Below, one piece after another: positions 1 to 19,518 of a stretch of 19,518 nucleotides of DNA. The stretch lies in IMG/VR virus record IMGVR_UViG_2541047681_000004; one strand, given 5' to 3'. The translations under genes and the position numbers were made by a program. Numbering within the stretch: position 1 is the stretch's first letter; each line of letters opens with the position of its first letter. This DNA comes from a virus. Its lineage: Duplodnaviria; Heunggongvirae; Uroviricota; Caudoviricetes. The notes under the pieces were generated by a model, which ran no database searches, was not told where the DNA came from, and saw only the letters and a program-made list of their open reading frames with translations.

Positions 1-390
1 TTACTCTTTTTTCTCCGTATCTGCATCGGGTTCATCAGCAAATAGCTTGCCCTGCATCCGATCCAGTTCTTCTTTTCTTACCCGCTTAACCACGCTGTAG
101 ACCCACTGAAGCGAAACACCAAATTTGCGGGCCAGTTCGTGGTGGTTGCGTCCGTTAAACTCCCTGAAGATTTCCCGGTCGCGCTGACTGACCTTCCATA
201 CCATGCCCATCGGGAAATAAACGTTTTGCCCGCCCCAGACCTGCATCATTCGGTTCGCGACGGCCTGACCAATCTGGTCGGCAACTTCGGGCTCAATATC
301 AATAATCTCGCGAACGGTCTCAGAGGTATGCTGTGCCAGTTCCACCAGGAGTTCCGGCCCCTTACTTCGAAACTGATTCAGGTCGCTCAT
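1..390 (-). CDS. mor: Mor/C-family transcriptional activator (Mu middle/late activator-like), 129 aa
   Basis: Complete ORF with stop at window nt 1-3. Length and C-terminal pattern (GGQxVYxP...FNGRN..EL...GVS...VY) match my recollection of the Mu Mor family. Last gene of the leftward early operon. Confidence 0.75.
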   Translation of the reverse strand: MSDLNQFRSKGPELLVELAQHTSETVREIIDIEPEVADQIGQAVANRMMQVWGGQNVYFPMGMVWKVSQRDREIFREFNGRNHHELARKFGVSLQWVYSVVKRVRKEELDRMQGKLFADEPDADTEKKE

Positions 391-814
391 GTTTGACTCC
401 CGCAGCTCTGCGCTGCCACTTCTTCAGTTTCTCAATAACACTGCTTGCCTGTTCAGTACTGAGCCAGCGCAGGGCGCTGATGCCCGTTTCCCGCTTGATC
501 CACCCCGCTAATGCATTTTCTGAACGGTCACGAACAATGCCGGCAGCAGCCATTTCAAGCCATAGCGCACGAATTTTCCTGGACTGCGGATGGTTATCCA
601 GCGGTAAACCGGAGCTGGCTTTTCTGGCTGGTTTAACGCGAAAGCCTTTCTTTTTCATGGATTCCAGCACGCAGTTTAGTTGTGTGGTATCCATTCCTTT
701 GGTTGAGGCTTTACCGGTCAGCCCCTGTAACATCTGGCGGTAGGTGTCTTCATCCATACCCAGTTCATTACGGGCAATATGAATGAGCTGGATAAGACGT
801 TGTTTAGTCATCAT
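362..814 (-). CDS. GemA-like early protein (Mu gp16/DUF1018-like), ~150 aa
   Basis: Track ORF 362..853; I prefer the ATG at 814 because an AAGGAG sits 5 nt upstream (RC of 820-825). N-terminus MMTKQRLIQLIHIA resembles the GemA family. Its 3' end overlaps the mor start. Confidence 0.65.
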   Translation of the reverse strand: MMTKQRLIQLIHIARNELGMDEDTYRQMLQGLTGKASTKGMDTTQLNCVLESMKKKGFRVKPARKASSGLPLDNHPQSRKIRALWLEMAAAGIVRDRSENALAGWIKRETGISALRWLSTEQASSVIEKLKKWQRRAAGVKHERPESVSK

Positions 815-1019
815 CGTTGCTCCTTTTACCTGCGCCACCGATATAATCGACATATAAAGGAAGCGCCACAGGCCAGTACAGGAACATCACCGACCAACTA
901 ATCCAGTAGCCGGCACCACTGTAACGTGAATAAAACCCTGAACGGCGGTGCAGTTCAGCAGTACACCAACCGACAAAACAATACCAGAACAGGGCACATA
1001 CAACAGATTCAGCAGTCAT
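804..1019 (-). CDS. small hydrophobic protein, ~71 aa
   Basis: Internal start of track ORF 804..1175; ATG at 1019 is preceded by GGGGGA. Trp/Phe-rich hydrophobic stretch. Stop overlaps the GemA ribosome-binding site. Confidence 0.35.
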   Translation of the reverse strand: MTAESVVCALFWYCFVGWCTAELHRRSGFYSRYSGAGYWISWSVMFLYWPVALPLYVDYIGGAGKRSNDDD

Positions 1020-1239
1020 TCTGAATATCCCCCCAACTGATATGAATATTACGGGCAGCAATGACAGGGTCGTTATTCCACCATGCACCTGACATGTATT
1101 TTTCAACCTGTTCGCGTCCGGCAATAACACCAATTGTGATCCCCGGCCTGACGTTCTTAAAAAAGGCGCGGGCAAAAAGGTATCTGGCAGATATTCGGCA
1201 GGCTTTTAATTTCCGGCTGTTACCTGATAGCGTAATCAT
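1009..1239 (-). CDS. hypothetical early protein, 76 aa
   Basis: ORF whose ATG overlaps the upstream stop (ATGA at 1236-1239); GGAGG 4 nt upstream. No family recognised. Confidence 0.4.
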   Translation of the reverse strand: MITLSGNSRKLKACRISARYLFARAFFKNVRPGITIGVIAGREQVEKYMSGAWWNNDPVIAARNIHISWGDIQNDC

Positions 1240-1919
1240 CTGGCCTCCAGTTTCTGTTGTTCCTGCCCACTGACCGGGCGGTGCAGTCTGACGTTCTGCC
1301 CTTCACGAAACCCCGCATAGCGCGAGGCGTCGCCATTGCGGCTTCTTCCCGGTTTACGCGCCCTGGTGGTTTGCGTCTGCGGGTATTTATGTTCCAGCCA
1401 CTGCTGCATCAGTTCACGTTCGTCATCGGTCAAGGCGAAGGACTGTATTTCACTGATAACGGCCAGCACCCAGCCTTCAGCAAACTGGTCTCCACGGCTG
1501 GTGCGGGTGGCGGTTTTTATTCTTTTGTTCTGTGCACTGATATACTGCTGACGCGCCTTTTTCAGCTGACGGGCCAGCACTTCCCAGGTGTACGCGGCCA
1601 GTGCGGCCCGTTCCCGGTTGCCGTAGAACCCCACACCCGGATATGTGCCGGGGTGAATGATGGAGTTAACACCAAATGCCTCGCGGATGATGTTCATCAG
1701 GCCCAGCATGTAGCGCGGCGGACGGAGGCTGCCTGTCGGCCAGTAGTGACTGATGGTTTCATCAATATCACTCATGGCGATGTCGGAATGTGTGATGCCG
1801 TGAACATCCATCAGTTTACGGGCGCGGCGCAGTGCCAGAGCAGCCTCATTCGGGTTGCCGGATGCTGCCAGCGCCAGCAACTTTTTCAGTTTCTCAATGT
1901 GCTTATCCTGGTCTGTCAT
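1236..1919 (-). CDS. DUF2786-like phage protein, 227 aa
   Basis: N-terminus (KLKKLLALAASGNPNEAALALRRARKLM) matches the DUF2786 signature as I recall it. Start overlaps upstream stop (ATGA at 1916-1919). Confidence 0.55.
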   Translation of the reverse strand: MTDQDKHIEKLKKLLALAASGNPNEAALALRRARKLMDVHGITHSDIAMSDIDETISHYWPTGSLRPPRYMLGLMNIIREAFGVNSIIHPGTYPGVGFYGNRERAALAAYTWEVLARQLKKARQQYISAQNKRIKTATRTSRGDQFAEGWVLAVISEIQSFALTDDERELMQQWLEHKYPQTQTTRARKPGRSRNGDASRYAGFREGQNVRLHRPVSGQEQQKLEAR

Positions 1920-2221
1920 TGTTCAGTATCTCCGGTGTACATGACGCCCAGCCGTGCGGCAAGGCGTTCCAGTTTTTTCTGTTTGTGGAAGTCAATCAGC
2001 CGGTCCATTCCCTGAAGGCGCAGCTGCTCTGTCATGATTTCCACGTCTGCCAGCTCTGCCGCGAGGTCACTTTCGCTGCCCTGTCCGTTCAGGTTGCGGG
2101 CGGCACTGGCCGCCAGTTCAGCAGCCTCTTCTGTCAGTTTCAGGGCCTGTGCATCCGGACCGAAACGCTGCAGGGCCAGACGGTAGAGGGCGGTGCGGGT
2201 GAGTTCGGTGTTCCGTGTCAT
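1916..2221 (-). CDS. MazG-like nucleotide pyrophosphohydrolase-domain protein, 101 aa
   Basis: EExxE...ExxD arrangement (LTEEAAEL ... ELADVEIM) typical of small all-alpha MazG/HisE-type NTP pyrophosphatases. GAGGG ribosome-binding site 7 nt upstream. Confidence 0.45.
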   Translation of the reverse strand: MTRNTELTRTALYRLALQRFGPDAQALKLTEEAAELAASAARNLNGQGSESDLAAELADVEIMTEQLRLQGMDRLIDFHKQKKLERLAARLGVMYTGDTEQ

Positions 2222-2230
2222 GCCGCGCCC

Positions 2231-2503
2231 TCAGTGTTTCCGGTCGACGGTGATGTTCAGGCCGCCTTCTGCAGTGGTTTCCACCCGGTACGGCACCTCG
2301 TGCTCTGCCGTGTGGGTGAGTGTGTTCATCAGTACCTGCAGGGCAGCCGCCTTTCCGTTGGTTGCCACAATGGCCTGAGCGGCAATGCTGATTAACGCCG
2401 TCAGGACGTGCTTCACATCGGTGAGGTCGCGGCATTCACACTCGTTGACATAGTGTTCAACAAGGGTTCGGGTGCGCTGTCGTGCTTCCTGTGGGGTAAT
2501 CAT
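2231..2503 (-). CDS. hypothetical early protein, 90 aa
   Basis: ORF in the coupled operon (ATGA overlap at 2500-2503 with the upstream gene). No family recognised. Confidence 0.45.
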   Translation of the reverse strand: MITPQEARQRTRTLVEHYVNECECRDLTDVKHVLTALISIAAQAIVATNGKAAALQVLMNTLTHTAEHEVPYRVETTAEGGLNITVDRKH

Positions 2504-2694
2504 TGCGCGTCCTCCCTGTCAGGGCGGGAGAATTCCATGACGGGCACGTCCGCCGAAAAATGCTGGCTGCAGTACGGACAGACCAGGGTGACACGTACTG
2601 CAGGTACGTGGTACTTACCGGACATCACGGCGATGGCGCTGTGAAAACGCAGGGCTGTTATATCCCTCTCGCACTGAATACATTTAAATATCAT
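2500..2694 (-). CDS. small zinc-ribbon protein (CxxC...CxxC), 64 aa
   Basis: Two CxxC pairs (CIQC ... CPYC). GAGGAG ribosome-binding site upstream (RC of 2703-2708). Confidence 0.5.
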   Translation of the reverse strand: MIFKCIQCERDITALRFHSAIAVMSGKYHVPAVRVTLVCPYCSQHFSADVPVMEFSRPDREDAQ

Positions 2695-2791: not shown

Positions 2792-3322
2792 TTACTGCAC
2801 ATCCTGCTCAAAAGGAATTATTGAAAAATCCTCAATATCACTTTTTATGGTAATACCGGGAATATTTTTCACGGCGTCCTTTTCATTCAGGATAGCGTCT
2901 TTATTTATTTCCTCTTTTACACGAATAAAGCGCTCAAGCCCCAGACGTCTCAGTAATTCAATAACATTATCCGCCCCACGGATACTGACTGATGGCGGAC
3001 GGTTTCGTCACTGCACCTCGCCGGTGGTGAGGTTAGCGAACTTCACCTTCCCGTTGCCGGTCAGTTCATCACGGTGTGCCTCACACCATGTCTGAATACC
3101 GGACTGCAGTTCGGCCATGCGTTTTTTCAGGCTCTCGGTGAGCGGGGCATAACGTGCGGTGATATCGCCAATGGCGTCATTCATTTCTGTTTCAGCCCTG
3201 ACCAGTTCACGTTGTGCGTCACCGAGTAGTCTGATTCCCTCAATGACCTCTTCACGTGTCCCCGGCACCCAGAGTGCTGCTGCGGCCTTGATACGTTTTG
3301 CACCTTTTGTACTTTTTGCCAT
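2792..3322 (-). pseudogene. gam: Gam-like host-nuclease inhibitor, interrupted by an in-frame TGA at 3008-3010
   Basis: The N-terminal 104 codons (3011..3322) and the following 71 codons (2795..3007) are in the same frame, and both resemble Mu Gam as I recall it. They are separated only by one TGA; the downstream segment has no further stops until TAA at 2792-2794. Confidence 0.7.
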
Positions 3323-3349: not shown

Positions 3350-3619
3350 TTACCACAAAGATTCCGGCCACACGACGCGACAGCCGTGCAGTTCGAAAAC
3401 GCCCTGACGGAAATATCCCCTGTGGTCATGTCCGGTATACAGATAACAGGCCTTTCCCTGCTCAAGCATGCGCATGCAATGCGCACTCCGGGAAACGCGG
3501 ATGACAGGTTTGTTACCCCTGATGGTGATGCTCTGTACATCCGTGTTCGTCGCCTTAAGCGCCATAATGGCTGACTGCACTTTGCTGATTTGCTGGTTGA
3601 TACCTGTGGTGGATTTCAT
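3350..3619 (-). CDS. hypothetical early protein, 89 aa (occupies the position of Mu kil)
   Basis: ORF directly downstream of the B-like gene with a GGGG ribosome-binding site. No family recognised; the kil comparison is positional only. Confidence 0.45.
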   Translation of the reverse strand: MKSTTGINQQISKVQSAIMALKATNTDVQSITIRGNKPVIRVSRSAHCMRMLEQGKACYLYTGHDHRGYFRQGVFELHGCRVVWPESLW

Positions 3620-3621: not shown

Positions 3622-4788
3622 TTAAACCCCTTTGACAACGTCAGCGTTGACCTGTGGAACCCCGATTTCAGCGGCCAGATTCATGGCGGCTATTACCAGG
3701 TTACTGACGGCCAGCGGATACAGCAGGCTGACCATATTTTTACGGTGACTTCCCGGATTGCTCAGGCGGGCACGTATGGCATCCACTGCACCGGCGTCCA
3801 TAATGTCCGTCAGCTGTTTACCGGCCCGTTGCAGTTTGAACGTCAGAAATTCTTCAAGGTTATTGTCCAGAGGCAGAAGTTCGACCACCTCACAGCGCTG
3901 AACGACTTCACGGACTTCCATATTGCGTTCAGACAGTTTTGTCGCCAGTTCCGGCTGGCCAATCAGCACGATGGACAGCAGTTTTTTGAAACCGGACTCC
4001 AGCTCAAAAAAGCGTTTGAGGTGTTTCAGTGTCGGAATGGGCAGACTGTGGGCCTCCTCAATCACCAGAACGTGGCTGAACCCCGCCTGGCTGCTGTCTT
4101 TCAGGACGCGATGCAACTGGCGAAAACGGGCGTCCTGACTGCGTCTGATGCTTTCCAGTGGTGCGATGGTACTGATAATGGCTTCGGCAATCGCTGCTGC
4201 CTTCAGGGTTTTCCCTTTCACATCGTTGTCTTCCATAGCGATGATGTATGGCTCGATAACAATTACCGGCGCATTCTCGCGGTTGATACGTTCAGTCAGG
4301 TCGCGGCGCAGCGTGGATTTACCCGCACCGGACTCACCGATGACGGCCATAAACCCACCATGACGGGCTGTCTGGTACAGCGCCTCACGCACGTAGCGAA
4401 TATCCGGGGTGGTGAACACATCATCAGAACCCTGCATGGCTTCGTCGGCGAACGGGTCACGGAAAAGACCAAACGCTTTTTTGGTTGCTGGAAATAACAC
4501 CTGTTTTTTGAGTAACATATTCTCTTCCTCACTGAGGCTCGTTTTATCTGTGGTACCCGCTGTACGGGGCGTGGCCGCGCCCTGTACAGCATCAAAACTC
4601 TTCGTTGTATCAATCCCCTGACTTTCCAGCCAGGACGCAAGACGCCGGCGCACTTCTCCGGGGCTGGTGCGGGGCCACGCGTTATGATTCACAATCTGGG
4701 CCAGCGTGGCCTCAGAAACATCGACAGCTCTCGCCACCACCGCCTGTGGAATACGGGCCTCTTTCAGTTGCTGCTTCAGTACCAGCAT
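3622..4788 (-). CDS. Mu B-like transposition/target-DNA activator, AAA+ ATPase, ~388 aa
   Basis: Walker A GESGAGKST and Walker B-like VLVIEEAH, with an N-terminal HTH-like region. Preferred start is ATG 4788, which has a GAGGAGG site 5 nt upstream overlapping the transposase stop; the track ORF extends to 4827. Confidence 0.8.
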   Translation of the reverse strand: MLVLKQQLKEARIPQAVVARAVDVSEATLAQIVNHNAWPRTSPGEVRRRLASWLESQGIDTTKSFDAVQGAATPRTAGTTDKTSLSEEENMLLKKQVLFPATKKAFGLFRDPFADEAMQGSDDVFTTPDIRYVREALYQTARHGGFMAVIGESGAGKSTLRRDLTERINRENAPVIVIEPYIIAMEDNDVKGKTLKAAAIAEAIISTIAPLESIRRSQDARFRQLHRVLKDSSQAGFSHVLVIEEAHSLPIPTLKHLKRFFELESGFKKLLSIVLIGQPELATKLSERNMEVREVVQRCEVVELLPLDNNLEEFLTFKLQRAGKQLTDIMDAGAVDAIRARLSNPGSHRKNMVSLLYPLAVSNLVIAAMNLAAEIGVPQVNADVVKGV

Positions 4789-4798: not shown

Positions 4799-6568
4799 TC
4801 AGTTGCCGTTAACAATGCTGATAACACTGCTGCGGGCCGGTGTGGTCAGCGTGGCCATGACTTCATCCAGTGCGGCTTCCGGTACGCCGTCCGGGTACTG
4901 TGCCGTTAACTGGCGGTAATGTTCCGGCGTCCAGGTAAGGCCGTCGGCGCTGAACTTATCGCGCAGGGCTTTCGCGGCCTCCACATGAGTCATGGGACGT
5001 TGTTCAGTGCGCGGCCCGCGTACGTCAGAGGCCTGACCACGCTTCGGCATATAGGCCGGAAGTGTGGTGTCGTCGATATGTTTATACGGGTCAAGCCGCC
5101 CGCCGAACGGCAGCGCCTTCGCCTTGCGTGCGGCGGCTGCATCTGCGGCGTTGTCTGTACCGGTAACCAGCGCTTCGGTTTCTTTTGCCGCCATCTGTGC
5201 CGGGGTTTCCGGCAGGGCTTTGTAACTTTCGCCAAATACCGCCGCGCCTTCAGCAAAGCCAAACTCGTTCTTTCTGACCTCTTCGACCAGGAAGAACGTC
5301 TCGTGGCCGTCCTCACCGGTCAGAACCACCTGTGCCACATCGCTGCGCCATGGGTTACGGGTAATCATCAGTTTTTCACCAACCAGTACGCCCGGTACCG
5401 TTGATACGTCAAATTCAGTGCCCCGGAACGAGACACGAAGTTTTGGCGTGACTTTGCGGAGTTCTGGTGCCGCCACAGCCAGTTCACGACATACCTCAAC
5501 GGGAGGCGCTTTTTTCAGCTGCTCAGCAGTAATCTTCAGCCAGATATCCGTGCGGGTTTTACCGTGGCGGCTGTGAACAGCCGTGGCGTTAAAGTGGCTG
5601 CGCCATTTCGCGGCCAGCGCGTTGAGTTCTTCCAGACTGTGAACCGGCCGGAACTTCAGACCCGGCTCCAGCTTGCGTTCGATAATGTCCCGCGCCTTTT
5701 CCACCTGTCCGGTGGCGCGGGCGTTATGCGGCTTGTGCGCTATCAGGTCGATGCCCAGTGAGCGGCACATGTTTTTCGTCATACCCGCGGTGTTTGCCGA
5801 GCCGGGGTCGAGATAGAGTATTTTCGGCACGCCGTGCAGCACGTCTGCGCCGCCACGCTCCTGCATGGCGTTGATAAGCACAGAACACAGGTTCTCACCG
5901 GATTCCGCGCCCGTCACATACTCAACGTAAATCCAGCCGCTGGCATGGTCGGTAATCTCGTAACTCCACACGCGGTCACTGGCGATACGGGCAAGGTTAG
6001 CGGGCTTGTTCTTGTAGAACTTCGCGCTGTCCATCACCTGCAGCCCTTTATGTCCATTGCTCAGGTAGTAAAGCGTGCAGAGTGAGGCGTCAATCTGCCA
6101 GACATGATTGGGATGCAGACTGGCCACTTCGGTATGTGGTGCAGGGGCATCCAGTTGTTCCGGGTGCAGGCCATAGTTACGCAGAGCACGGCTGATGGCA
6201 TCTTCAGACAACGGGAAAAACTCACCGGTGGTTTCATCTGTTCTGCCTGCGGTGATAAAGCCGTTAGCCCGCAGGGTTTCCACTGCATCTGCGATGGAAT
6301 AGAGACGCTTACCGTTCTTGCGGGTGGCCTCACGCAGTGTGGCAGATATCAGCGCGGCTTCGTCGCGGGTCAGGGCGCTGCGCCCGGCATCGGCGCGTTT
6401 TTTGCGTTTATCAGTCACAGAGACCTCCTTCAGCCTGCGCAGCAGAGTGGCGCGGGACATGCCAAGTTCAGCACAGGCAGCGTCGTATATTGCACCGCGT
6501 TTACCATGCCCCGCGTCACGTGCCGCGCGGGCGACATAAACCAGTCGTTCAGTCAGGGCAGCATTCAT
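4799..6568 (-). CDS. DDE transposase with integrase-like core (transposable-phage TnpA), 589 aa
   Basis: N-terminal HTH-like region, a central core with Asp-containing motifs (WQIDAS, LYLDPGS) consistent with an rve/DDE fold, and a B-like ATPase gene immediately downstream as in Mu A-B. Confidence 0.85.
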   Translation of the reverse strand: MNAALTERLVYVARAARDAGHGKRGAIYDAACAELGMSRATLLRRLKEVSVTDKRKKRADAGRSALTRDEAALISATLREATRKNGKRLYSIADAVETLRANGFITAGRTDETTGEFFPLSEDAISRALRNYGLHPEQLDAPAPHTEVASLHPNHVWQIDASLCTLYYLSNGHKGLQVMDSAKFYKNKPANLARIASDRVWSYEITDHASGWIYVEYVTGAESGENLCSVLINAMQERGGADVLHGVPKILYLDPGSANTAGMTKNMCRSLGIDLIAHKPHNARATGQVEKARDIIERKLEPGLKFRPVHSLEELNALAAKWRSHFNATAVHSRHGKTRTDIWLKITAEQLKKAPPVEVCRELAVAAPELRKVTPKLRVSFRGTEFDVSTVPGVLVGEKLMITRNPWRSDVAQVVLTGEDGHETFFLVEEVRKNEFGFAEGAAVFGESYKALPETPAQMAAKETEALVTGTDNAADAAAARKAKALPFGGRLDPYKHIDDTTLPAYMPKRGQASDVRGPRTEQRPMTHVEAAKALRDKFSADGLTWTPEHYRQLTAQYPDGVPEAALDEVMATLTTPARSSVISIVNGN

Positions 6569-8528: not shown

Positions 8529-8548
8529 TCTATTCCCAATGAGAACAA

Positions 8549-10894: not shown

Positions 10895-10950
10895 TCGTTC
10901 TTTCATGATGCGGCAGGGATGGCGGGATTTCTGTTAATGTGGTTTAGGGA

Positions 10951-11166: not shown

Positions 11167-11167
11167 G

Positions 11168-12403: not shown

Positions 12404-12754
12404 ATGAAAAACCTGAAAAAATTCATTCCCCCTGTTAAAAAACCTCGCCTCAGCGGCTGGCTGCTGACCTCAGTGCTGTTGCTGGGCATCATCGCTCTGG
12501 TCTCGCCACAGCAGTTGCCTGTTGTGATCTACAAGCTGGCACTCATCACGCTGGCAGCAGTGCTGGGGTACTGGCTTGACCGTTCGCTCTTCCCCAAAGC
12601 CCGTCCCGGTCAGTACCTGAAACATGAAGACAGGCTGATGGCTGAAGGGCGTTTCCCGGTGCAGACCGGCCTTCACCTTGTATTTTCTGCTGCGTTAATC
12701 CGCCGTGCACTGATTGTTGCAGCTGTCTGTCTGGCTGTTGCGATGGGGCTTTAA
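12404..12754 (+). CDS. putative holin, ~116 aa, 3 hydrophobic helices
   Basis: AAGGAG 6 nt upstream of ATG 12404 (track ORF begins at GTG 12371). Three hydrophobic segments, positioned immediately upstream of the endolysin. Confidence 0.5.
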   Translation: MKNLKKFIPPVKKPRLSGWLLTSVLLLGIIALVSPQQLPVVIYKLALITLAAVLGYWLDRSLFPKARPGQYLKHEDRLMAEGRFPVQTGLHLVFSAALIRRALIVAAVCLAVAMGL

Positions 12755-12756: not shown

Positions 12757-13497
12757 ATGAACTGGCCGCAGATCACCTGGATTGTATGCATGTCCCTGAA
12801 ACTGGCTTTCGAAGCCTTTCGGGTCTTCATCAGAACCGAACGCCTGTCAGTCCGCGCCGGGACCTTTCTGGTTCATATGGCATGGGTATTCTTTGTCGCA
12901 ATGTTGCTCTGGTGTGGCGGCTTTTTCAGCCAGGCATGCGCAGCGCAGCCTCCGCAGGTTGCGCTGCAGTATCGCGATGATGTGATCCGTAATGCCCGGC
13001 TTGAATGGGGACTGTCTGCGCCGGTGGCCGACTTCGCCGCGCAGCTGCATCAGGAAAGCGGCTGGCGACCTGATGCGATCTCGCCGGCTGGCGCTCAGGG
13101 ACTGGCGCAGTTCATGCCTGCCACTGCCGACTGGATAAGCCAGTTGATACCGATGCTGAGCAGTCGTGAGCCGTTTAATCCGGCATGGGCTATCCGGGCG
13201 CTGGTCAGCTATGACCGCTGGCTGTGGCAGCGTGTCAGCGCCGCCAGTGACTGCGAGCGTATGGCCATGACGCTGTCGGGCTATAACGGTGGTCTGGGCT
13301 GGGTACAGCGGGACAGACGGCTGGCCTCACAGCAGGGGCTGGACAGCACCCGCTGGTTCGGACATGTCGCCACGGTGAATGCCGGACGCAATGCGGCCAG
13401 CTGGCGGGAGAACCGCCATTATCCGCAGCGCATCCTGCGCGAACTGGCACCGCGATATCTCACATGGGGAGGCAGCAGTTGTGTGGCATCTGGTTAA
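12757..13497 (+). CDS. lytic transglycosylase endolysin (SLT domain) with N-terminal hydrophobic anchor/signal, 246 aa
   Basis: SLT signature QESGWRP ... AQGLAQFMPATA. N-terminal hydrophobic stretch VHMAWVFFVAMLLWCGGFF, consistent with a signal-anchor-release or secreted endolysin. Start adjoins the holin stop. Confidence 0.8.
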   Translation: MNWPQITWIVCMSLKLAFEAFRVFIRTERLSVRAGTFLVHMAWVFFVAMLLWCGGFFSQACAAQPPQVALQYRDDVIRNARLEWGLSAPVADFAAQLHQESGWRPDAISPAGAQGLAQFMPATADWISQLIPMLSSREPFNPAWAIRALVSYDRWLWQRVSAASDCERMAMTLSGYNGGLGWVQRDRRLASQQGLDSTRWFGHVATVNAGRNAASWRENRHYPQRILRELAPRYLTWGGSSCVASG

Positions 13498-14131
13498 AAA
13501 GCTGCCGTGGCGCGGCATTCTGCTGGCCATTCTTATCAATGCCTTTCTGGTCGGCCTGTATGCCATGGGATACAGAAGTGGTCATGACTCTGCAAAGCGT
13601 GACGGTGATACCGCGCTCAGTCAGTTGCAGTCAGCGTTCGACGCGTACAAAACGGAGCAGGCAACGCTTGAGAATGCTGCGCTGCGGGCCTGGGCCAGAC
13701 GGTATCAGGAGCAGGTGGCCGCCGGGCAGCGGGCTGAAGCCGGTTATCTTGAGCAGATTGCTCAACTGGAGAGCCGGAATAAACAACTACAGGGGCAAAT
13801 TAACGATGTCACACAGCGCTGGATTGATGAAAAAGGTAAGAGCCATCCCATTGAGTGCGTGTTTACTCGCGGTTTCGTGCGCCAGTACAACGCCGCACTC
13901 GGATATGACAACGCATCCGTCGACACCGGTCATTCAGACTCAGTTGCCGCCGCTGGCACCCGCTCTGGCACAGCGACCGGGCAACCTGAAACCACTGACA
14001 CCCGGTTACGCGATTCGGGTGTCTCCCAGCGTGACGTTCTCGCCAACATCATCGACAACGCAGGACAATGTCGTCGCTGGCGGAACCAGATAAACGCGTT
14101 ACTGGATGAACGGGAAGGATTACAGAAATGA
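13481..14131 (+). CDS. i-spanin (Rz-like), ~216 aa
   Basis: GTG 13481 with GGGGAGG 8 nt upstream. N-terminal TM (WRGILLAILINAFLVGLYAMGY) followed by coiled-coil sequence. The track ORF start at 13379 lies inside the endolysin. Confidence 0.55.
   Translation: MWHLVKKLPWRGILLAILINAFLVGLYAMGYRSGHDSAKRDGDTALSQLQSAFDAYKTEQATLENAALRAWARRYQEQVAAGQRAEAGYLEQIAQLESRNKQLQGQINDVTQRWIDEKGKSHPIECVFTRGFVRQYNAALGYDNASVDTGHSDSVAAAGTRSGTATGQPETTDTRLRDSGVSQRDVLANIIDNAGQCRRWRNQINALLDEREGLQK
13827..14093 (+). CDS. o-spanin (Rz1-like lipoprotein), 88 aa, nested in the +1 frame of the i-spanin gene
   Basis: MKKVRAIPLSACLLAVSCAS signal/lipobox-like N-terminus followed by a Pro/Thr/Ser-rich body, nested entirely within the Rz-like gene. 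Alternative start ATG 13806. Confidence 0.55.
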   Translation: MKKVRAIPLSACLLAVSCASTTPHSDMTTHPSTPVIQTQLPPLAPALAQRPGNLKPLTPGYAIRVSPSVTFSPTSSTTQDNVVAGGTR

Positions 14132-14454
14132 CACTGCAGGTTGAATTCTGGACGGTGGTGAGTTTTCTGCTCACCTTCATGGGGTTTGTGGGAGGGCTCG
14201 CCAAATGGTTGTTCAGTAAAACAGAAGAACGCCAGGCGGCACGATTCGCCTCCCTTGAACAGGCCCTGCAACAATCCGCCTCCAACTGGGGCGAGCTGGA
14301 AAAAGAATTTATGCGATTTAAAGCGGATTTACCGCTGAATTATGTCCGTCGAGAGGATTATATCCGTGGCCAGACAGTCATTGAGGCCAAACTGGACGCG
14401 CTTTATAACAAACTGGAAGTGGTACAGCAGTACCGCAATACCGGAGGTCAATAA
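14128..14454 (+). CDS. DUF2730-like small membrane-anchored phage protein, 108 aa
   Basis: N-terminal TM helix then coiled-coil; a common Mu-like late gene in this position. Start overlaps the Rz stop (ATGA). Confidence 0.5.
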   Translation: MTLQVEFWTVVSFLLTFMGFVGGLAKWLFSKTEERQAARFASLEQALQQSASNWGELEKEFMRFKADLPLNYVRREDYIRGQTVIEAKLDALYNKLEVVQQYRNTGGQ

Positions 14455-14765
14455 TGGTCGATATTACCCGGGTACGCCGCGAATCCCTGCGCTGGAGTCT
14501 GCTGGTTGCCCTGAACAAGACCCGCCCTTACACCGCCAGCGAGACGCTGCTGCTGGATGTGTCCCGTGCCATCTACCCGGACACCACACCGCTGGAACTG
14601 CGACGCGAACTGGATTATCTGGCTGACCGTAAAATGGTTGATCTGGAGAAAAAACCTTCTGGCGACTGGTTTGCTGACCTGACCCGCCTCGGCGTAGACC
14701 TGGTGGAATACACCGTGGAATGTGGTCCGGGTATTGCCCGCCCGGAAAAGTACTGGAGTGAATAA
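14454..14765 (+). CDS. conserved hypothetical late protein, 103 aa
   Basis: Coupled start (TAATG overlap at 14452-14456), located between the lysis and packaging genes. No family recognised. Confidence 0.5.
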   Translation: MVDITRVRRESLRWSLLVALNKTRPYTASETLLLDVSRAIYPDTTPLELRRELDYLADRKMVDLEKKPSGDWFADLTRLGVDLVEYTVECGPGIARPEKYWSE

Positions 14766-15268
14766 TGGCCAGACGCAGCACAATAGAAAAGCTGCCGGAA
14801 GATGTGCGCCGCTGGCTTGAACGGGCGCTGACTGAATCCGGCTTCAGCGGGTATAACGAGTTGGAGTCCCTGCTGCGTGAGCGGGGGTACGTCATCAGCA
14901 AATCCGCTATCCATCGCTATGGACAGAAGATTGAGCGCCGCTATGGTGCTATCCGTGCGGCAACAGAAGCGGCCCGCATGCTGACCGAAGGCGCAGCAGA
15001 CGATCAGGATGCGCGTTCGGAGGCTGTGATAGCCCTTATTCAGACCGAGCTGTTCGAGAGTATTGTCCAGTTGCAGGAGGCGGAAGAAGGCGAAGTCGAT
15101 CCTAAAGAACGCGTGGCCCTGCTGTCGAAGGTGGCGAAGAATGTGGCTACGCTGTCCCGCGCGTCCGTCAACCTCAAAAAGTTCCAGTCTGAAGTACGGG
15201 CCAGAGCGCAGCAGGCAGCCAGCAACGCCGAGAAAATTGCCCGTAAGGGGGGTATGAGACGACAATAA
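14765..15268 (+). CDS. small terminase subunit-like protein (Mu gp27/DUF3486-like), 167 aa
   Basis: Size, helical/charged composition and position immediately upstream of terL (before the IS) fit Mu gp27-type proteins. Coupled start (TAATG). Confidence 0.55.
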   Translation: MARRSTIEKLPEDVRRWLERALTESGFSGYNELESLLRERGYVISKSAIHRYGQKIERRYGAIRAATEAARMLTEGAADDQDARSEAVIALIQTELFESIVQLQEAEEGEVDPKERVALLSKVAKNVATLSRASVNLKKFQSEVRARAQQAASNAEKIARKGGMRRQ

Positions 15269-15345
15269 CTCAGTCCGCCTGGCGCCGATTATTCTGGCCG
15301 GTTTTGTAACCTGAGTGTCATTTACATGATCCAACAGGAAATGGC

Positions 15346-16845
15346 GTGACGCTCAATACTTCTCAGGTCAGTTACTATATGACTCAGCGTAAGAAAGGTA
15401 TAACTCAGCATATCTCGGCCATGAAGGCTGGTATCTCAGTCCGTTCTGGTCGTCGGATCGAAAAAGGAGAGTGGGCAAAAAACAGTGTTCGGCACTGGCG
15501 CACACGCAAAGATCCTCTGGAAGCTGTGTGGGACAGCATGCTTGTTCCTCTGTTGAAAGAGAGGCCGGCTCTGACACCAACAACTCTGCTGGAGATGCTA
15601 CAGGATAAATATCCCGGCCAGTACCCCAACAGCCTTCGAAGAACAATGCAACGGCGGGTCCGCGAATGGAAGCTACAGTATGGTGCAGAGCAGGAGGTCA
15701 TGTTCCGCCAGCGACATCAGCCCGGTCTGCGAGGTCTGTCGGACTTTACTGAACTGAAAGGTGTAGTTGTCACCATCGCCGGTAAGTTGTTGGCGCATAA
15801 GTTGTATCACTTCCGTCTGGAATGGAGCCACTGGAGCTGGATGCGGGTTGTGCTGGGTGGTGAGAGCTTCTCTGCTCTGGCTGAAGGTCTGCAGGAAGCC
15901 CTCGGACAACTGGGCGGAGTGCCGGTAGAACATAAAACGGACAGCCTGAGGGCAGCATGGAAACAACAGGGCGAAGATGGACGCCGCGAGCTGACTGAGC
16001 GTTATGCTGCTCTCTGTCAGCACTACGGAATGCAGGGCGTACACAATAATGCCGGTCGGGGCCACGAAAATGGCTCGGTTGAAAGTGCCCACGGACATCT
16101 GAAAAGGCGTATCTGTCAGGCGCTGATACTGCGGGGCAGTAACGACTTCAGCACCATAGAAGAATATCAGGCCTTCATCACTCAGCAGGTTATGCGGCAC
16201 AACCGTAACAATCAGGATCTGGTCAAGGAAGAACGTCTTCATCTGAAACCGCTGCCGCTTCGTCGCAGTGCTGACTATGATGAGCTGACTGTGAGGGTTA
16301 GCCGCAGCAGTACCATCAATGTGAAGCACGTCGTCTACAGCGTACCTTCCCGGCTTGTAGGTCAACTGTTACGGGTCCGGTTATGGGACGATCGTCTGAG
16401 CTGTTACGTTGGCAGCAGCGAGGTCATGAGCTGCCCACGTGTCAGACCAGAAAAAGGGAAGACGCGGGCCCGTCGTATCGACTTCCGACATGTGATCGAC
16501 AGTCTGGCAAAAAAGCCCGGTGCGTTCTGCCATGCAACGCTGAGAAATGACATCCTGCCAGACGATGAATGGCGGAGGCTGTGGCGTCGCTTATGTAATC
16601 ATCTGGAACCCGACATGGCAGGCAGGCTGATGGTACATGCTCTGAAACTGGCTGCAGGATACGACGATATCTCAGTCGTGGCAAAAGGTATGGAGCAGAT
16701 GCTGAATACCCCGGGAAACGTGGATCTGCACCGGCTGATGCGCTTCCTGGGTATAAAGGAAAAGGCGTTGCCGGTAGTCAATGTGAAACAGCATAACCTG
16801 AGCAGTTATGAGCAACTACTGCGTGGCAAGGGAGGTTCGCAGTGA
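15346..16845 (+). CDS. istA: IS21-family transposase IstA, 499 aa from GTG 15346
   Basis: N-terminal HTH (ISAMKAGISVRSGRR), integrase-type catalytic core, conserved HENGSVESAHGHLKRR segment. AGGAA 5 nt upstream of GTG 15346; alternative ATG 15379. Confidence 0.85.
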   Translation: MTLNTSQVSYYMTQRKKGITQHISAMKAGISVRSGRRIEKGEWAKNSVRHWRTRKDPLEAVWDSMLVPLLKERPALTPTTLLEMLQDKYPGQYPNSLRRTMQRRVREWKLQYGAEQEVMFRQRHQPGLRGLSDFTELKGVVVTIAGKLLAHKLYHFRLEWSHWSWMRVVLGGESFSALAEGLQEALGQLGGVPVEHKTDSLRAAWKQQGEDGRRELTERYAALCQHYGMQGVHNNAGRGHENGSVESAHGHLKRRICQALILRGSNDFSTIEEYQAFITQQVMRHNRNNQDLVKEERLHLKPLPLRRSADYDELTVRVSRSSTINVKHVVYSVPSRLVGQLLRVRLWDDRLSCYVGSSEVMSCPRVRPEKGKTRARRIDFRHVIDSLAKKPGAFCHATLRNDILPDDEWRRLWRRLCNHLEPDMAGRLMVHALKLAAGYDDISVVAKGMEQMLNTPGNVDLHRLMRFLGIKEKALPVVNVKQHNLSSYEQLLRGKGGSQ

Positions 16846-17597
16846 GCAATATCCATCACCTTGAACGCAGCCTGCGTAAACTACGCCTGACACGAGTTGG
16901 AGCTGAATGGCACGCTCTGGAAAAACGAGCACTGGCAGAAGGCTGGACACCATCGCGCTATCTTCTGACGCTATGCAATGAAGAACTCCTGTGGCGCGAG
17001 AGTGAAAAACTGCGTCGTTATAAAAAGGAGGCCCGGTTGCCAGTTGCCAAAACGCTAAGCGAATACGACTTCAGTCAGGTGCCGGAACTGAATGGAGCTC
17101 AGTTCCGGCAACTCTGTGAAACGACAGACTGGGTTGATGCAGGAGAAAACGTTCTGCTGTTCGGAGCCAGCGGGTTGGGGAAAAGCCATCTGGCGGCAGC
17201 GATCGTGGATGGCGTAGTAGGCCAGGGCTACCGGGCCCGGTTCTACAGCGCAGGAGAGTTGTTGCAGGAACTACGTAAAGCCAGAGCGCAGTTGAAACTG
17301 AATGAGCTGCTACTGAAACTGGATCGCTACCGGGTGATAGTGGTGGATGATCTTGGCTATGTCAAACGCGACAGCGCCGAAACGGGAGTACTGTTCGAGT
17401 TAATAGCGCATCGCTATGAACGTGGGAGCCTGGTGATAACCAGTAACCATCCGTTCAGCATGTGGGGCAGCATCTTCGTGGATGAGACTATGGCGGTGGC
17501 GGCGGCAGACCGGCTGATCCATCACGGATATATGTTCGAACTGAAAGGTGAAAGCTACAGGAAAAAGACAGCGAAGGCAGTAACAAGCGCGACTTGA
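16842..17597 (+). CDS. istB: IS21-family helper ATPase IstB, 251 aa
   Basis: Walker A GASGLGKSH, Walker B VIVVDDLGY and the IstB-like tail HHGYMFELKGESYR. GTG start overlaps the istA stop. Confidence 0.9.
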   Translation: MSNIHHLERSLRKLRLTRVGAEWHALEKRALAEGWTPSRYLLTLCNEELLWRESEKLRRYKKEARLPVAKTLSEYDFSQVPELNGAQFRQLCETTDWVDAGENVLLFGASGLGKSHLAAAIVDGVVGQGYRARFYSAGELLQELRKARAQLKLNELLLKLDRYRVIVVDDLGYVKRDSAETGVLFELIAHRYERGSLVITSNHPFSMWGSIFVDETMAVAAADRLIHHGYMFELKGESYRKKTAKAVTSAT

Positions 17598-17722
17598 TGT
17601 CGCACTGAAGGGTGCGGCCAGTATAGTTGGCGCGAGTCGGCAAAACTAGTTGACGTCTAATAGGGGGGACTGTCAAGCGACGCAGTACAGGCGCTTCGTC
17701 GCGAGATTCTGGGGATTGCCAC

Positions 17723-19318
17723 ATGACAAAATCATCCGGAGTGATTTTAAACGCCGCTGGCGGTGGCCCCGAAGGGATGAGTCCCATGGACGGGAGGAAT
17801 AACCTTGCTCCCGTTTTGCCTGATACCTCGGCGCTGGATGCTCCTCCCGTTCTGTTGCCTTACCAGCAGCGCTGGGTGGCAGACACCTCTCCGCTTAAGG
17901 TGATAGAAAAGAGCCGTCGTACCGGTATTACATGGGCTGAGGCATCCGATAACGTACTGACCGCCGCCTCTTCTGCGCCAGCAGGCGGGATGAATGTGTA
18001 TTACATCGCTTATAACCAGGACATGACCGTCGAATACATTCAGGCGTGTGCGATGTGGGCACGGGCATTCAACTATGCGGCCAGTGAAATTGAAGAAGGA
18101 TTCTGGGAAGAGGACGACGACGACAAACACATCAGGACTTACACCATCAAATTTCCTGACTCCGGCTTTCGTATTGTTGCGCTCTCCAGCCGCCCGTCTA
18201 ACCTGCGTGGCCGTCAGGGTATTATTGTTATCGACGAAGCGGCGTTCCATGAGCAACTGGACGAACTGCTGAAAGCGGCGCTGGCGATGCTTATCTGGGG
18301 GGGAAAGGTACGCGTTATCTCCACCCATGACGGTGACGACAATCCGTTCAATACGCTTATCGGGGATATCCGTGCCGGACGTCAGGGAGGCAGCATACAT
18401 CGCATCACTTTCCGGGAAGCCGTATCTGAGGGGCTGTTCCGGCGCGTCTGTCTGCGCACCGGGAAGGAATGGTCGGAGGCATCCGAGCAGGCCTGGATGG
18501 CATCGGTGTACAAATTCTACGGTGCCGGCGCATCCGAAGAGCTTGACTGTATTCCGGCCAACGGTGGCGGTGCCTGGCTGTCCCGTGCCCTGATAGAGTC
18601 CCGCATGTCCGCTGATACGCCGGTATTGCGTCTGACCTGCAAGGAAGGTTATGAACTGCTGTCTGATGAGGTTCGCTTCCGCGAGACGCAGGACTGGCTT
18701 GATGAGTATCTGAAACCCTTGCTGGAGGCACTCCCCACTGATGCCCGCTCTTTCCTGGGGCGCGACTTTGGCCGTAGCGGTGATTTGTCGGTGGACTATC
18801 CCCTGCTGCAGGAGAAGAACCTGGTACGACGCGTGCCATTCGTACTGGAGCTGCGTAACGTGCCGTTCAGACAGCAGGAGCAAATCACCTGGTATCTGAT
18901 GGATGGCCTGCCCGGTCTGCTGGGTGCAGCGTTTGATGCCCGTGGTAATGGTGCCTATCTGGCTGAATACGCCATGCAGCGCTACGGCTCCGGCCGGGTT
19001 CAGCAGGTGATGCCAACCGAAGGCTGGTACCGGGAGCATATGCCTCCGGTCAAAGCTGCACTGGAAGACGGTAACCTGGTGGACTTACCAAAGGATGAAG
19101 ACACACTGGATGACCTGCGGGCCGTTCAGGTGGTGAACGGTGTCCCCCGCGTACCGGAGCAACGCTCAAAAGCAAAGGCTGACGGTGGTAAACGCCACGG
19201 GGATTCAGCCATCGCACTGGCGCTGGCGTATTTCGCCAGCCGTGAAATTAACAAAGGGCCGGTGAAGGCAAGCTCACGCCGTCGTCGTCAGGCGGCCCGT
19301 ATGCTGGAGGGATTCTGA
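17723..19318 (+). CDS. large terminase subunit (Mu gp28-like), 531 aa
   Basis: Large acidic protein immediately followed by a portal-like gene; its motifs resemble Mu-type TerL as I recall them. Separated from terS by the IS21 element. The N-terminal ~30 residues could be affected by the insertion. Confidence 0.7.
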   Translation: MTKSSGVILNAAGGGPEGMSPMDGRNNLAPVLPDTSALDAPPVLLPYQQRWVADTSPLKVIEKSRRTGITWAEASDNVLTAASSAPAGGMNVYYIAYNQDMTVEYIQACAMWARAFNYAASEIEEGFWEEDDDDKHIRTYTIKFPDSGFRIVALSSRPSNLRGRQGIIVIDEAAFHEQLDELLKAALAMLIWGGKVRVISTHDGDDNPFNTLIGDIRAGRQGGSIHRITFREAVSEGLFRRVCLRTGKEWSEASEQAWMASVYKFYGAGASEELDCIPANGGGAWLSRALIESRMSADTPVLRLTCKEGYELLSDEVRFRETQDWLDEYLKPLLEALPTDARSFLGRDFGRSGDLSVDYPLLQEKNLVRRVPFVLELRNVPFRQQEQITWYLMDGLPGLLGAAFDARGNGAYLAEYAMQRYGSGRVQQVMPTEGWYREHMPPVKAALEDGNLVDLPKDEDTLDDLRAVQVVNGVPRVPEQRSKAKADGGKRHGDSAIALALAYFASREINKGPVKASSRRRRQAARMLEGF

Positions 19319-19518
19319 TGGCGAGGGGTATCTGGGTTTCACCCGATGAATTTGTTGCTTTTTCTGAGCCTCAGAAATCACTGACCGCGCAGATTGCCTC
19401 CCGCAGCCGCGCGATCGACTTTTACGGACTGGGCATGTATCTGCCCAATCCTGATCCCATTCTCAAGGCTCAGGGACGGGATATCCGTATCTACCGCGAA
19501 CTGCGCACCGACCCGCTG
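19318..19518 (+). CDS. portal protein (Mu gp29/DUF935-like), N-terminal fragment truncated by the window end
   Basis: Start overlaps the terL stop (ATGG/TGA at 19316-19320); the ORF runs to the window edge. Assignment rests mainly on position after terL. Confidence 0.45.
   Translation, partial: MARGIWVSPDEFVAFSEPQKSLTAQIASRSRAIDFYGLGMYLPNPDPILKAQGRDIRIYRELRTDPL

What the first reader, a model, noticed from the sequence alone, without database searches (positions are those of the whole stretch)
1..19518. Divergent early-left/late-right organisation typical of BcepMu-type rather than Mu-type transposable phages
In Mu the repressor sits at the left end and early, middle and late genes all run rightward. 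Here the early operon (Ner-like through Mor) runs leftward and the late operon (lysis through terminase) runs rightward from a central immunity/accessory region, with a membrane-anchored transglycosylase endolysin. That matches what I recall of the BcepMu-like group. The window therefore contains no prophage end, and I found no Mu-type terminal repeats.
Basis: partly seen in the sequence, partly recalled or inferred. Interest (0 to 1): 0.45.

Follow-up and report, generated by a model that had tools for sequence, protein, structure and literature searches.

The report
BcepMu-type transposable prophage, left half
The window is the left half of a common E. coli transposable prophage built like Burkholderia phage BcepMu rather than like Mu, which is already known; this copy also carries an insertion sequence in its small-terminase gene, a nonsense mutation in gam, and a previously unlabelled RexAB-like gene pair beside its repressor.

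Summary

- **Early arm:** fifteen genes on the minus strand (8023 down to 1) run from a weakly Ner-like gene through an rve transposase, an ExeA-type ATPase, Gam and GemA to Mor.
- **Central region:** a CI-type repressor starts divergently at 8112. A mosaic accessory region follows, to 12273.
- **Late arm:** holin, SLT endolysin, Rz/Rz1, TerS, TerL and portal run rightward from 12404.
- **Synteny:** every conserved gene is colinear and co-oriented with BcepMu (34-71% amino-acid identity). In Mu the Mor, GemA and Gam homologues lie on the same strand as TerL.
- **Ends:** near-identical prophages sit at four different loci in four complete E. coli genomes; both ends were read in three of them and each carries a 6-bp target duplication. 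In those relatives the left end lies 163 bp beyond window position 1. This window therefore most likely contains no prophage end.

ISEc10 (15253-17661) truncates TerS. gam carries W105*. Genes 8651-9941 look like a RexA/RexB exclusion pair, by predicted fold and membrane topology only.

Interest in the stated finding is low.

The parts
1..390 (-). Mor/C-family transcription activator. It is the last gene of the leftward early operon.
   Evidence: Pfam PF08765, E 1.3e-43. 54% identity to BcepMu gp01 and 30% to Mu Mor.
362..811 (-). GemA (Mu gp16 family).
   Evidence: PF06252, E 3.4e-41. 44% to BcepMu gp02 and 36% to Mu GemA.
804..2694 (-). Six small or unknown early genes: 804-1019, 1009-1239, 1236-1919 (DUF2786/DUF7168), 1916-2221, 2231-2503, 2500-2694.
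   Evidence: ORFs, RefSeq annotation of relatives and Pfam. None has a BcepMu or Mu homologue.
2792..3322 (-). gam pseudogene. Codon 105 is TGG->TGA (W105*) at 3008-3010.
   Evidence: Translation compared with intact copies in CP028744 and PhiKM. PF07352 matches the N-terminal 104 aa. 56% identity to Mu Gam. The same lesion is annotated as a pseudogene in CP069500.
3350..3619 (-). Small early gene of unknown function.
   Evidence: ORF. Annotated in relatives.
3622..4788 (-). ExeA/AAA_22 ATPase, the presumed MuB-analogous transposition helper.
   Evidence: PF13401, E 3.6e-20. 59% to BcepMu gp08 and no match in Mu. The helper function is inferred from its position next to the transposase.
4799..6568 (-). 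DDE (rve) transposase of the BcepMu/Tn552-IS1604 type.
   Evidence: PF00665 is the only Pfam hit. 68% to BcepMu gp09 over 577 aa, with no match to MuA.
6572..7483 (-). DUF3102 protein (BcepMu gp10 homologue).
7494..7802 (-). Winged-HTH regulator (BcepMu gp12 homologue).
   Evidence: HTH_IclR, E 3.5e-6. phrog_1368, transcriptional regulator. 34% to gp12.
7799..8023 (-). First early gene, weakly Ner-like.
   Evidence: PF13693 HTH_35, E 0.007, below the curated cut-off. BLASTP to Mu Ner gives 33% over 42 aa, E 5e-4. phrog_769, transcriptional repressor, E 5e-5.
8024..8111 (.). 88-bp AT-rich divergent control region between the early operon and the repressor gene. TGAATAA/TTATTCA occurs four times in and next to it, at 8016, 8062, 8075 and 8113.
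   Evidence: The promoter scan is not above chance, so the promoter and operator roles are inferred from position only.
8112..8528 (+). CI-type repressor.
   Evidence: PF07022 Phage_CI_repr, E 1.2e-17. Same position as BcepMu gp17, but not detectably homologous to it.
8651..9544 (+). RexA-like protein. Its relatives carry DUF6731.
9504..9941 (+). RexB-like protein: 145 aa with four hydrophobic segments.
   Evidence: The hydropathy segments lie at the same positions as in lambda RexB (144 aa). The pair is conserved next to DUF6731 genes in lambdoid prophages. hhalign is not significant.
9994..10761 (-). Dam-type N6-adenine methyltransferase.
   Evidence: PF02086, E 8e-30. PADLOC MTase_II, E 1e-112.
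10951..12273 (.). Three accessory genes of unknown function: 10951-11166 (-), 11165-11569 (+), and 11545-12273 (-), which carries a Walker-A motif.
   Evidence: PHROGs families of unknown function. Sequences. Absent from BcepMu.
12337..12354 (+). Candidate activator-dependent late-promoter element, TAACGCGCTTTAAAATCC, 50 nt upstream of the holin ATG.
   Evidence: A related element lies upstream of the head operon in the E. coli relative. In BcepMu the 19-mer TAAAGCCGATTAAAAGACC occurs exactly twice, upstream of the holin gene gp21 and of gp32. The function is inferred.
12404..12754 (+). Holin.
   Evidence: PF13272 Holin_2-3, E 9e-42. 50% to BcepMu gp21.
12757..13497 (+). SLT lytic transglycosylase endolysin with an N-terminal hydrophobic anchor or signal segment.
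   Evidence: PF01464, E 2e-14. 61% to BcepMu gp22. Hydropathy peak at about residues 36-63.
13481..14131 (+). Rz (i-spanin), with Rz1 (o-spanin lipoprotein) embedded at 13827-14093 in the +1 frame.
   Evidence: 32-34% to BcepMu Rz and Rz1. N-terminal TM segment in Rz. Lipobox LLAVSC and a proline-rich sequence in Rz1.
14128..14765 (+). Two conserved small late genes, homologues of BcepMu gp25 and gp26.
   Evidence: 52% and 57% identity. phrog_462 and phrog_436.
14765..15268 (+). Small terminase (Mu gp27/DUF3486 family), truncated from 181 aa to 163 native residues plus MRRQ.
   Evidence: PF11985, E 5e-50. Compared with the intact copy.
15253..17661 (+). ISEc10 (IS21 family, 2409 bp): istA 15346-16845, istB 16842-17597. 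7-bp target duplication AGGGGGG at 15246-15252 and 17662-17668.
   Evidence: Breakpoints from alignment to the uninterrupted prophage. 100% identical to annotated ISEc10 copies, for example in CFT073. IstB_IS21, E 9.5e-62. Imperfect terminal inverted repeats.
17723..19318 (+). Large terminase.
   Evidence: 63% to BcepMu gp28 and 49% to Mu gp28.
19318..19518 (+). N-terminus of the portal protein (DUF935, Mu gp29 family). It runs off the window.
   Evidence: 71% to BcepMu gp29. Annotated in relatives.

Best explanation
The window is the left ~17 kb of a ~38-kb BcepMu-type transposable myovirus prophage of E. coli, plus a 2.4-kb IS.

Shown:
- Gene content, strand layout and colinearity with BcepMu.
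- Independent insertions of the same element at different chromosomal sites in relatives, with TG...CA ends and 6-bp duplications.
- The ISEc10 insertion and the gam nonsense codon in this copy.

Inferred mechanism:
1. In the lysogen the CI-type repressor (8112-8528) binds the 88-bp divergent region. This shuts the leftward early promoter. The two RexAB-like genes downstream of the repressor are probably expressed in this state.
2. On induction the early operon is read leftward. It makes the Ner-like and HTH regulators, the rve transposase and the ExeA-type ATPase that drive replicative transposition, then Gam, GemA and finally Mor.
3. Mor is the only Mor/C-family protein found. It acts in trans on promoters marked by a conserved TAAAGC..ATTAAAA element, at 12337-12354 and again before the head genes. 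This turns on the rightward late operons: holin, signal-anchored SLT endolysin, Rz/Rz1, terminase, portal, head and a P2-like tail.

State of this copy. TerS has lost its last 18 residues. A 2.4-kb IS now separates TerL and everything downstream from the lysis-operon promoter. gam is truncated. The prophage is therefore probably impaired in packaging and particle production.
For: - Layout and domains.
- Colinear, co-oriented homology to BcepMu, with the early block inverted relative to Mu.
- In the full-length E. coli relative, 35 of 50 BcepMu proteins are colinear on the same strands.
- Published description of the BcepMu layout and its Tn552-type transposase: PMC2771037.
- Four related copies at four different loci: the nagE-glnS interval, rlmI, downstream of yaaU, and a DUF2300 gene.
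- Left end TGATTAGACTTGAGATAAATG..., right end ...CGCGCGGCGCATCA. Both carry two GAGATAWWT-like repeats, as the BcepMu ends do.
- 6-bp duplications CTTCTC, GCTTTT and GCCACG.
- Isolated phages PhiKM, KP12 and Phi06_2974 B share the module.
- The transposition module is present in 638 of 5426 complete E. coli genomes.
- Late-promoter element conserved between the E. coli phage and BcepMu at both operon starts.
- IS and gam lesions.
Against: - No flank of this particular genome was available, so its own ends and insertion site are unverified. A junction search of genome contigs found nothing.
- The repressor and most small early genes have no BcepMu homologue.
- Nucleotide similarity to BcepMu is only about 18%.
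- The sigma-70 promoter scan is no better than chance, so the promoter assignments rest on position and conservation.
- Nothing here tests whether the truncated TerS or IS polarity actually abolishes packaging.
- Relatives carry a Gin-like invertase and an invertible tail-fibre segment. PMC2771037 reports no tail-fibre inversion system in BcepMu.
Confidence: 0.93

Rival explanations
1. A Mu-type phage whose early region was inverted by a local rearrangement or by an assembly error in this genome.
For: Mor, GemA, Gam and TerL do have Mu homologues, and the first three are inverted relative to TerL.
Against: The same arrangement is present in 23 complete E. coli genomes, in isolated phages and in BcepMu itself. 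The transposase and ATPase are not MuA or MuB. The ends and the 6-bp duplication bracket the whole element.
Confidence: 0.01
2. Two independent elements lie side by side: a Tn552-like transposon or early-gene fragment next to a separate lysis/packaging fragment of a P2- or Mu-like phage.
For: The central region (8651-12273) has low GC of 0.41-0.46 and mixed strands, and it differs from PhiKM between about 7730 and 10037.
Against: Only one pair of inverted ends and one target duplication flank the whole 38 kb in each of three genomes. The two arms are colinear with the two arms of BcepMu. The variable centre is an immunity and moron hotspot inside one phage.
Confidence: 0.02
3. This copy is still a fully functional, inducible phage. 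The IS insertion and the gam stop would then be tolerated.
For: TerS keeps 163 of 181 residues and most of the Pfam domain (model positions 1-159 of 173). The IS genes are co-oriented with the late operon, so read-through is conceivable. The gam stop is shared by a whole lineage.
Against: In the PhiKM annotation TerS and TerL overlap by 4 nt. A 2.4-kb insertion now separates them, and TerL lies 2.4 kb further from the presumed promoter. IS-disrupted prophages are usually defective (general knowledge).
Confidence: 0.25

Closest known systems
Burkholderia phage BcepMu (AY539836) and the 'BcepMu-like viruses' (Summer et al. 2004; Lavigne et al. 2009, PMC2771037)
   Same: - Bottom-strand early cluster ending in GemA and Mor at the left end.
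- Tn552-type rve transposase plus ExeA-type ATPase.
- Control region at the strand switch.
- Holin, SLT, Rz/Rz1, gp25, gp26, TerS, TerL and portal on the top strand, at 34-71% amino-acid identity and strictly colinear.
- TG...CA ends with paired GAGATAWWT-like repeats.
- The same candidate late-promoter element.
   Different: - Only about 18% nucleotide similarity.
- Repressor, Ner-like gene and most small early genes are not homologous.
- A Mu-type Gam is present here (56% identity to Mu Gam). BcepMu has no gene that matches it and encodes SSB and HU proteins that have no counterpart here.
- The central region here carries Dam, a RexAB-like pair and three unknown genes, some on the minus strand.
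- Relatives have a Gin-like invertase and an invertible tail-fibre segment.
- The hosts are Enterobacteriaceae.
Escherichia phage PhiKM (PQ738613, filed under Bcepmuvirus), Klebsiella phage KP12, Escherichia phage Phi06_2974 B, and prophages in complete E. coli genomes (e.g. NZ_CP069500)
   Same: 87-99.7% nucleotide identity over the phage part, with the same genes in the same order.
   Different: None of the copies aligned or listed here (CP069500, PhiKM and the top-scoring complete genomes) has the ISEc10 insertion in TerS. PhiKM has a different immunity segment (about 7730-10037) and an intact gam.
Escherichia phage Mu (AF083977)
   Same: A transposable myovirus with homologous Mor, GemA, Gam, TerS-family, TerL and portal genes.
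   Different: - In Mu the repressor is at the left end and everything else runs rightward.
- Mu has MuA/MuB rather than rve/ExeA.
- Mu has two activators, Mor then C.
- Mu has a SAR lysozyme-type endolysin rather than an SLT (Mu annotation).
- Mu makes a 5-bp duplication (established knowledge of Mu); relatives of this phage make 6 bp.
Phage lambda cI-rexA-rexB, and RexABpp of a P. putida prophage (PMC11077077, PMC12894663)
   Same: - It is followed by a 145-aa protein with four hydrophobic segments.
- Both lie directly downstream of a CI-type repressor and are co-oriented with it.
   Different: There is no detectable sequence similarity, and no Pfam or PADLOC Rex model matches. The host element is a transposable phage. 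The function is untested.

Membership tests
BcepMu-type transposable phages (organisational group) | Two opposed gene clusters: early/regulatory/transposition genes on the bottom strand, and repressor through morphogenesis genes on the top strand. | tested here: met
   against the description in PMC2771037. Three accessory genes in the centre are on the bottom strand.
BcepMu-type transposable phages (organisational group) | Transposase of the Tn552/IS1604 rve type, unrelated to MuA, with an adjacent ExeA-type ATPase. | tested here: met
   68% to gp09 and 59% to gp08. rve is the only Pfam domain. No tblastn match in Mu.
BcepMu-type transposable phages (organisational group) | Lysis cassette (holin, SLT endolysin, Rz/Rz1) placed between the control region and the terminase genes. 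| tested here: met
BcepMu-type transposable phages (organisational group) | Transposon-like TG...CA ends, insertion at many sites, target-site duplication. | tested here: met
   Met in relatives only. Four insertion loci were seen and both ends were read in three genomes, each with a 6-bp duplication. Not testable for this window's own genome, which has no flank.
BcepMu-type transposable phages (organisational group) | Mu-related TerL and head genes with a P2-like tail module. | tested here: met
   TerL is 63% to BcepMu and 49% to Mu. The tail module is colinear in the full-length relative, outside the window.
Genus Bcepmuvirus in the strict ICTV sense (about 70% nucleotide identity over the genome; criterion recalled from my own knowledge) | Nucleotide similarity to the type phage BcepMu at or above the genus threshold. 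| tested here: not met
   27% of the phage part aligns at about 68% identity, giving roughly 18% overall. GenBank nevertheless files the near-identical PhiKM under Bcepmuvirus.
Mu-type phages (Muvirus) | Repressor at the left end with all other genes rightward; MuA/MuB; 5-bp duplication. | tested here: not met
IS21 family / ISEc10 | Consecutive, slightly overlapping istA and istB genes, terminal inverted repeats, a short target duplication, and identity to named copies. | tested here: met
RexAB-type exclusion systems | RexA-fold DNA-binding protein. | tested here: met
   [not shown]
RexAB-type exclusion systems | Adjacent ~16-kDa four-TM partner, downstream of the immunity repressor and co-oriented with it. 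| tested here: met
   Layout as in lambda (PMC11077077).
RexAB-type exclusion systems | Sequence homology to RexA/RexB (Pfam or PADLOC models, profile comparison). | tested here: not met
RexAB-type exclusion systems | Exclusion of superinfecting phage; RexA-RexB interaction; membrane depolarisation. | not testable with these tools
   Needs experiments.

The most novel reading that the evidence does not exclude
The DUF6731-family gene (8651-9544) and its four-TM partner (9504-9941) may be an unrecognised, sequence-divergent RexAB-type abortive-infection or exclusion module. It would be co-expressed with the repressor of a transposable phage, and it also travels as a moron in lambdoid prophages of Enterobacteriaceae. 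Current defence-system HMMs (PADLOC) and Pfam Rex models miss it.
Probability: 0.5. Interest if true: 0.4.

Novelty: already known. Interest (0 to 1): 0.15.

Why it matters
The stated finding matters little for discovery. It correctly classifies a common E. coli prophage type, whose transposition module is present in about 12% of complete genomes, as BcepMu-like rather than Mu-like.

That classification does guide annotation:
- The transposase and ATPase are not MuA/MuB.
- The target duplication is 6 bp.
- The left end lies just beyond Mor.
- The 499-aa and 251-aa ORFs in the late arm are ISEc10 genes, not phage genes.

Two by-products are more useful:
- A conserved candidate late-promoter element is shared with BcepMu. 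It gives a testable target for the single Mor-family activator.
- A RexAB-like pair sits beside the repressor. If confirmed, it would extend this classic exclusion system to transposable phages and to a DUF family that no paper in the searched library mentions.

Tried and rejected
- **Source genome:** an exact search of genome contigs for the ISEc10/TerS junction found no match, so the source genome and its flanks could not be recovered.
- **Promoters and terminators:** the sigma-70 promoter and terminator scan of the whole window gave counts equal to shuffled expectation. No promoter claim rests on it.
- **RNA genes:** Rfam and tRNA scans found nothing.
- **Accessory genes:** PADLOC gave only the methyltransferase and two weak chance-level hits for 11545-12273. 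PHROGs gave only families of unknown function.
- **Sequence-level tests of the Rex idea:** all were negative. This covers hhalign of the g17 family against lambda RexA (probability 3%), hhalign of the g18 family against RexB (2%), and a profile search of PDB sequences (no hit).
- **afdb50 fold library:** not available.
- **Summer et al. 2004 (the BcepMu paper):** not held. Its content is cited only through PMC2771037.
- **Rival readings:** a rearranged Mu and two juxtaposed fragments were both considered and rejected on synteny and on the single pair of ends.

Full report
**What is in the window**

ORF listing, Pfam scans and the RefSeq annotation of a 99.7%-identical prophage in E. coli FDAARGOS_1258 give one consistent map.

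- **Early arm, 8023 down to 1 (minus strand, 15 consecutive genes):**
  - a small protein, 7799-8023, that is weakly Ner-like (HTH_35 E 0.007, below cut-off; 33% to Mu Ner over 42 aa, E 5e-4);
  - a winged-HTH regulator (7494-7802);
  - DUF3102 (6572-7483);
  - an rve transposase (4799-6568);
  - an AAA_22/ExeA ATPase (3622-4788);
  - a small gene (3350-3619);
  - Gam (2792-3322);
  - six small or unknown genes, one of them DUF2786/DUF7168;
  - GemA (362-811);
  - Mor (1-390), whose stop codon is window bases 1-3.
- **Control region:** after an 88-bp AT-rich gap, a CI-type repressor (PF07022) starts at 8112 on the plus strand.
- **Accessory region, 8651-12273:** it has low GC, 0.41-0.46, and mixed strands. 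It holds two plus-strand genes, a Dam methylase on the minus strand, and three further unknown genes.
- **Late arm, from 12404 (all plus strand):**
  - holin (PF13272);
  - an SLT transglycosylase with one N-terminal hydrophobic segment;
  - Rz, with an embedded proline-rich lipoprotein Rz1;
  - two small conserved genes;
  - TerS of the Mu gp27 family;
  - TerL;
  - the start of the portal.

**Comparison with the references**

I fetched BcepMu (AY539836) and Mu (AF083977) and ran tblastn with every window protein.

- Against BcepMu, the matches are strictly colinear and on the same strands. They run from Mor (BcepMu 368-721, minus) through GemA, gp08, gp09 (68%), gp10 and gp12, then holin, SLT, Rz/Rz1, gp25, gp26, TerS, TerL and portal (15819-16013, plus).
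- Against Mu, only Mor, GemA, Gam and TerL match, and in Mu all four are on the plus strand.
- At the DNA level, Mu gam aligns in reverse orientation while TerL aligns forward.
- The transposase and ATPase have no detectable counterpart in Mu.

Lavigne et al. 2009 (PMC2771037) describe this organisation for BcepMu. Genes 1-13 are on the bottom strand, the control region is at genes 16/17, and the lysis cassette and morphogenesis genes follow on the top strand. The transposase is Tn552/IS1604-type and the ends carry CA dinucleotides. GenBank files the 96.7%-identical phage PhiKM under Bcepmuvirus. Nucleotide similarity to BcepMu itself is only about 18%. By the 70% genus rule, which I recall from my own knowledge, this would be a different genus of the same organisational type.

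**One phage, not two fragments; where the ends are**

- The same contiguous arrangement covers at least 80% of the query in 23 complete E. coli genomes.
- The four copies I examined sit at four different places: between nagE and an island before glnS, inside rlmI, downstream of yaaU, and inside a DUF2300 gene. A fifth site appears in a Logan contig.
- Aligning the left flanks shows that similarity begins sharply at TGATTAGACTTGAGATAAATGAC. This point is 163 bp to the left of the base equivalent to window position 1.
- The right end is ...ATTTATCGCGCGGCGCATCA.
- Both ends carry two GAGATAWWT-like repeats about 22 nt apart, as the two ends of BcepMu do.
- Three genomes give 6-bp target duplications: CTTCTC, GCTTTT and GCCACG. 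The duplication is therefore 6 bp, not Mu's 5 bp.
- The element is 37.8-38.2 kb long.
- In the full-length relative, 35 of 50 BcepMu proteins are colinear on the same strands, including the P2-like tail genes.

The end motifs do not occur in the window. 'No prophage end in the window' is thus correct but narrow, and it rests on homology. I could not recover this genome's own flanks.

1. **ISEc10 in TerS.** Alignment to the uninterrupted prophage breaks at 15252 and 17662, with a 7-bp overlap. The intervening 2409 bp are 100% identical to annotated ISEc10 copies, for example in CFT073. They encode IstA (15346-16845) and IstB (16842-17597; PF01695, E 9.5e-62). The element has imperfect terminal inverted repeats and is flanked by AGGGGGG on both sides. 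The insertion truncates TerS from 181 aa to 163 native residues plus four IS-encoded ones. It also separates TerL from TerS; in the PhiKM annotation the two genes overlap by 4 nt. The two largest ORFs in the 'late operon' between TerS and TerL are therefore not phage genes.
2. **gam nonsense codon.** gam carries TGG->TGA at codon 105 (3008-3010). The closest E. coli lineage shares this change. CP028744, PhiKM and a Logan contig do not.

I infer from these two lesions that this copy is probably impaired in particle production. That is not shown.

**How it most likely works**

*Shown:* gene content, orientation, homology, and transposon-like insertion in relatives.

*Inferred:*
- The repressor acts on the 88-bp divergent region, where TGAATAA/TTATTCA recurs four times. 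The consensus promoter scan is uninformative here.
- De-repression gives a leftward early transcript that ends with Mor.
- Mor is the only Mor/C-family protein detected. It would act in trans on late promoters.

Support for the last step comes from a conserved element. TAACGCGCTTTAAAATCC lies at 12337-12354, 50 nt before the holin ATG. TAAAGCAGATTAAAATCG lies before the head operon of the E. coli relative. In BcepMu the 19-mer TAAAGCCGATTAAAAGACC occurs exactly twice, before holin gene gp21 and before gp32. In the 38-kb E. coli prophage, TTAAAATC occurs only three times on both strands, and two of those are at these operon starts.

**A by-product in the accessory region**

- **The first gene.** The 297-aa protein directly downstream of the repressor has no Pfam, PHROG-function or PADLOC assignment. 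Its relatives carry DUF6731, which no paper in the searched library mentions.
- **The second gene.** It slightly overlaps the first and encodes 145 aa. Its four hydrophobic segments lie at the same positions as those of lambda RexB, which is 144 aa.
- **Conservation of the pair.** The same pair occurs as a moron next to the Q antiterminator gene in lambdoid prophages.
- **The evidence against.** All sequence-level tests here were negative.

I rate the RexAB-type reading at about 0.5.

**Verdict**

The kind is already known and is common: the transposition module is present in 638 of 5426 complete E. coli genomes. Interest in the stated finding is low. The IS insertion, the gam lesion, the 6-bp duplication, the candidate late-promoter element and the RexAB-like pair are the points worth recording.

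Noticed in passing
window 15253-17661 (target duplication at 15246-15252 and 17662-17668): ISEc10 (IS21 family, istA and istB) is inserted in the 3' end of the small-terminase gene. It is 100% identical to copies in CFT073 and other strains. None of the related prophages aligned or listed here has it.
   Followed up: yes
window 3008-3010 (gam, 2792-3322, minus strand): Nonsense mutation W105* (TGG->TGA) in the Mu-type gam gene. The closest E. coli lineage (CP069500) shares it. It is intact in CP028744, PhiKM and a Logan contig.
   Followed up: yes
[not shown]
   Followed up: partly
window 12337-12354; L002 about 35813; BcepMu (L003) about 11486 and 18813: A conserved element, TAA(A/C)GC-NN-(A/T)TTAAAA(T/G)(C/A), lies immediately upstream of both the lysis and the head operons in the E. 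coli phage and in BcepMu. In BcepMu it is an exact 19-mer that occurs only twice. It is a candidate target of the Mor-family activator.
   Followed up: partly
L002 15838 (163 bp left of window position 1); L006 783; L010 1447; L015: Prophage ends in relatives are TG...CA with paired GAGATAWWT-like repeats resembling the BcepMu ends. The target duplication is 6 bp in three of three genomes (CTTCTC, GCTTTT, GCCACG), not Mu's 5 bp.
   Followed up: yes
L005 4339-6105; L010 294-1369; L015 376-1493 (right end of related prophages, outside the window): Relatives carry opposed partial tail-fibre and assembly genes next to a Gin-like serine recombinase. This looks like an invertible host-range segment as in Mu. 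PMC2771037 reports that BcepMu has no such inversion system.
   Followed up: no
window 8016-8119: TGAATAA/TTATTCA occurs four times, in alternating orientation, in and around the 88-bp divergent control region. These are candidate operator half-sites. The region is AT-rich, so chance cannot be excluded.
   Followed up: partly
window 11545-12273 (minus strand): A 242-aa protein with an N-terminal Walker-A motif (GPVGSGKS). It belongs to phrog_3787 (unknown function), is conserved in PhiKM and is absent from BcepMu. It sits just upstream of the late promoter region, on the opposite strand.
   Followed up: no
L001 (PhiKM record) 20200-20739: The PhiKM GenBank record joins the tail-fibre end to the Mor end through about 500 bp that include a host-like 'Fe2+ ABC transporter permease' fragment. 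The record is permuted and contains non-phage DNA at the junction of the two phage ends.
   Followed up: no
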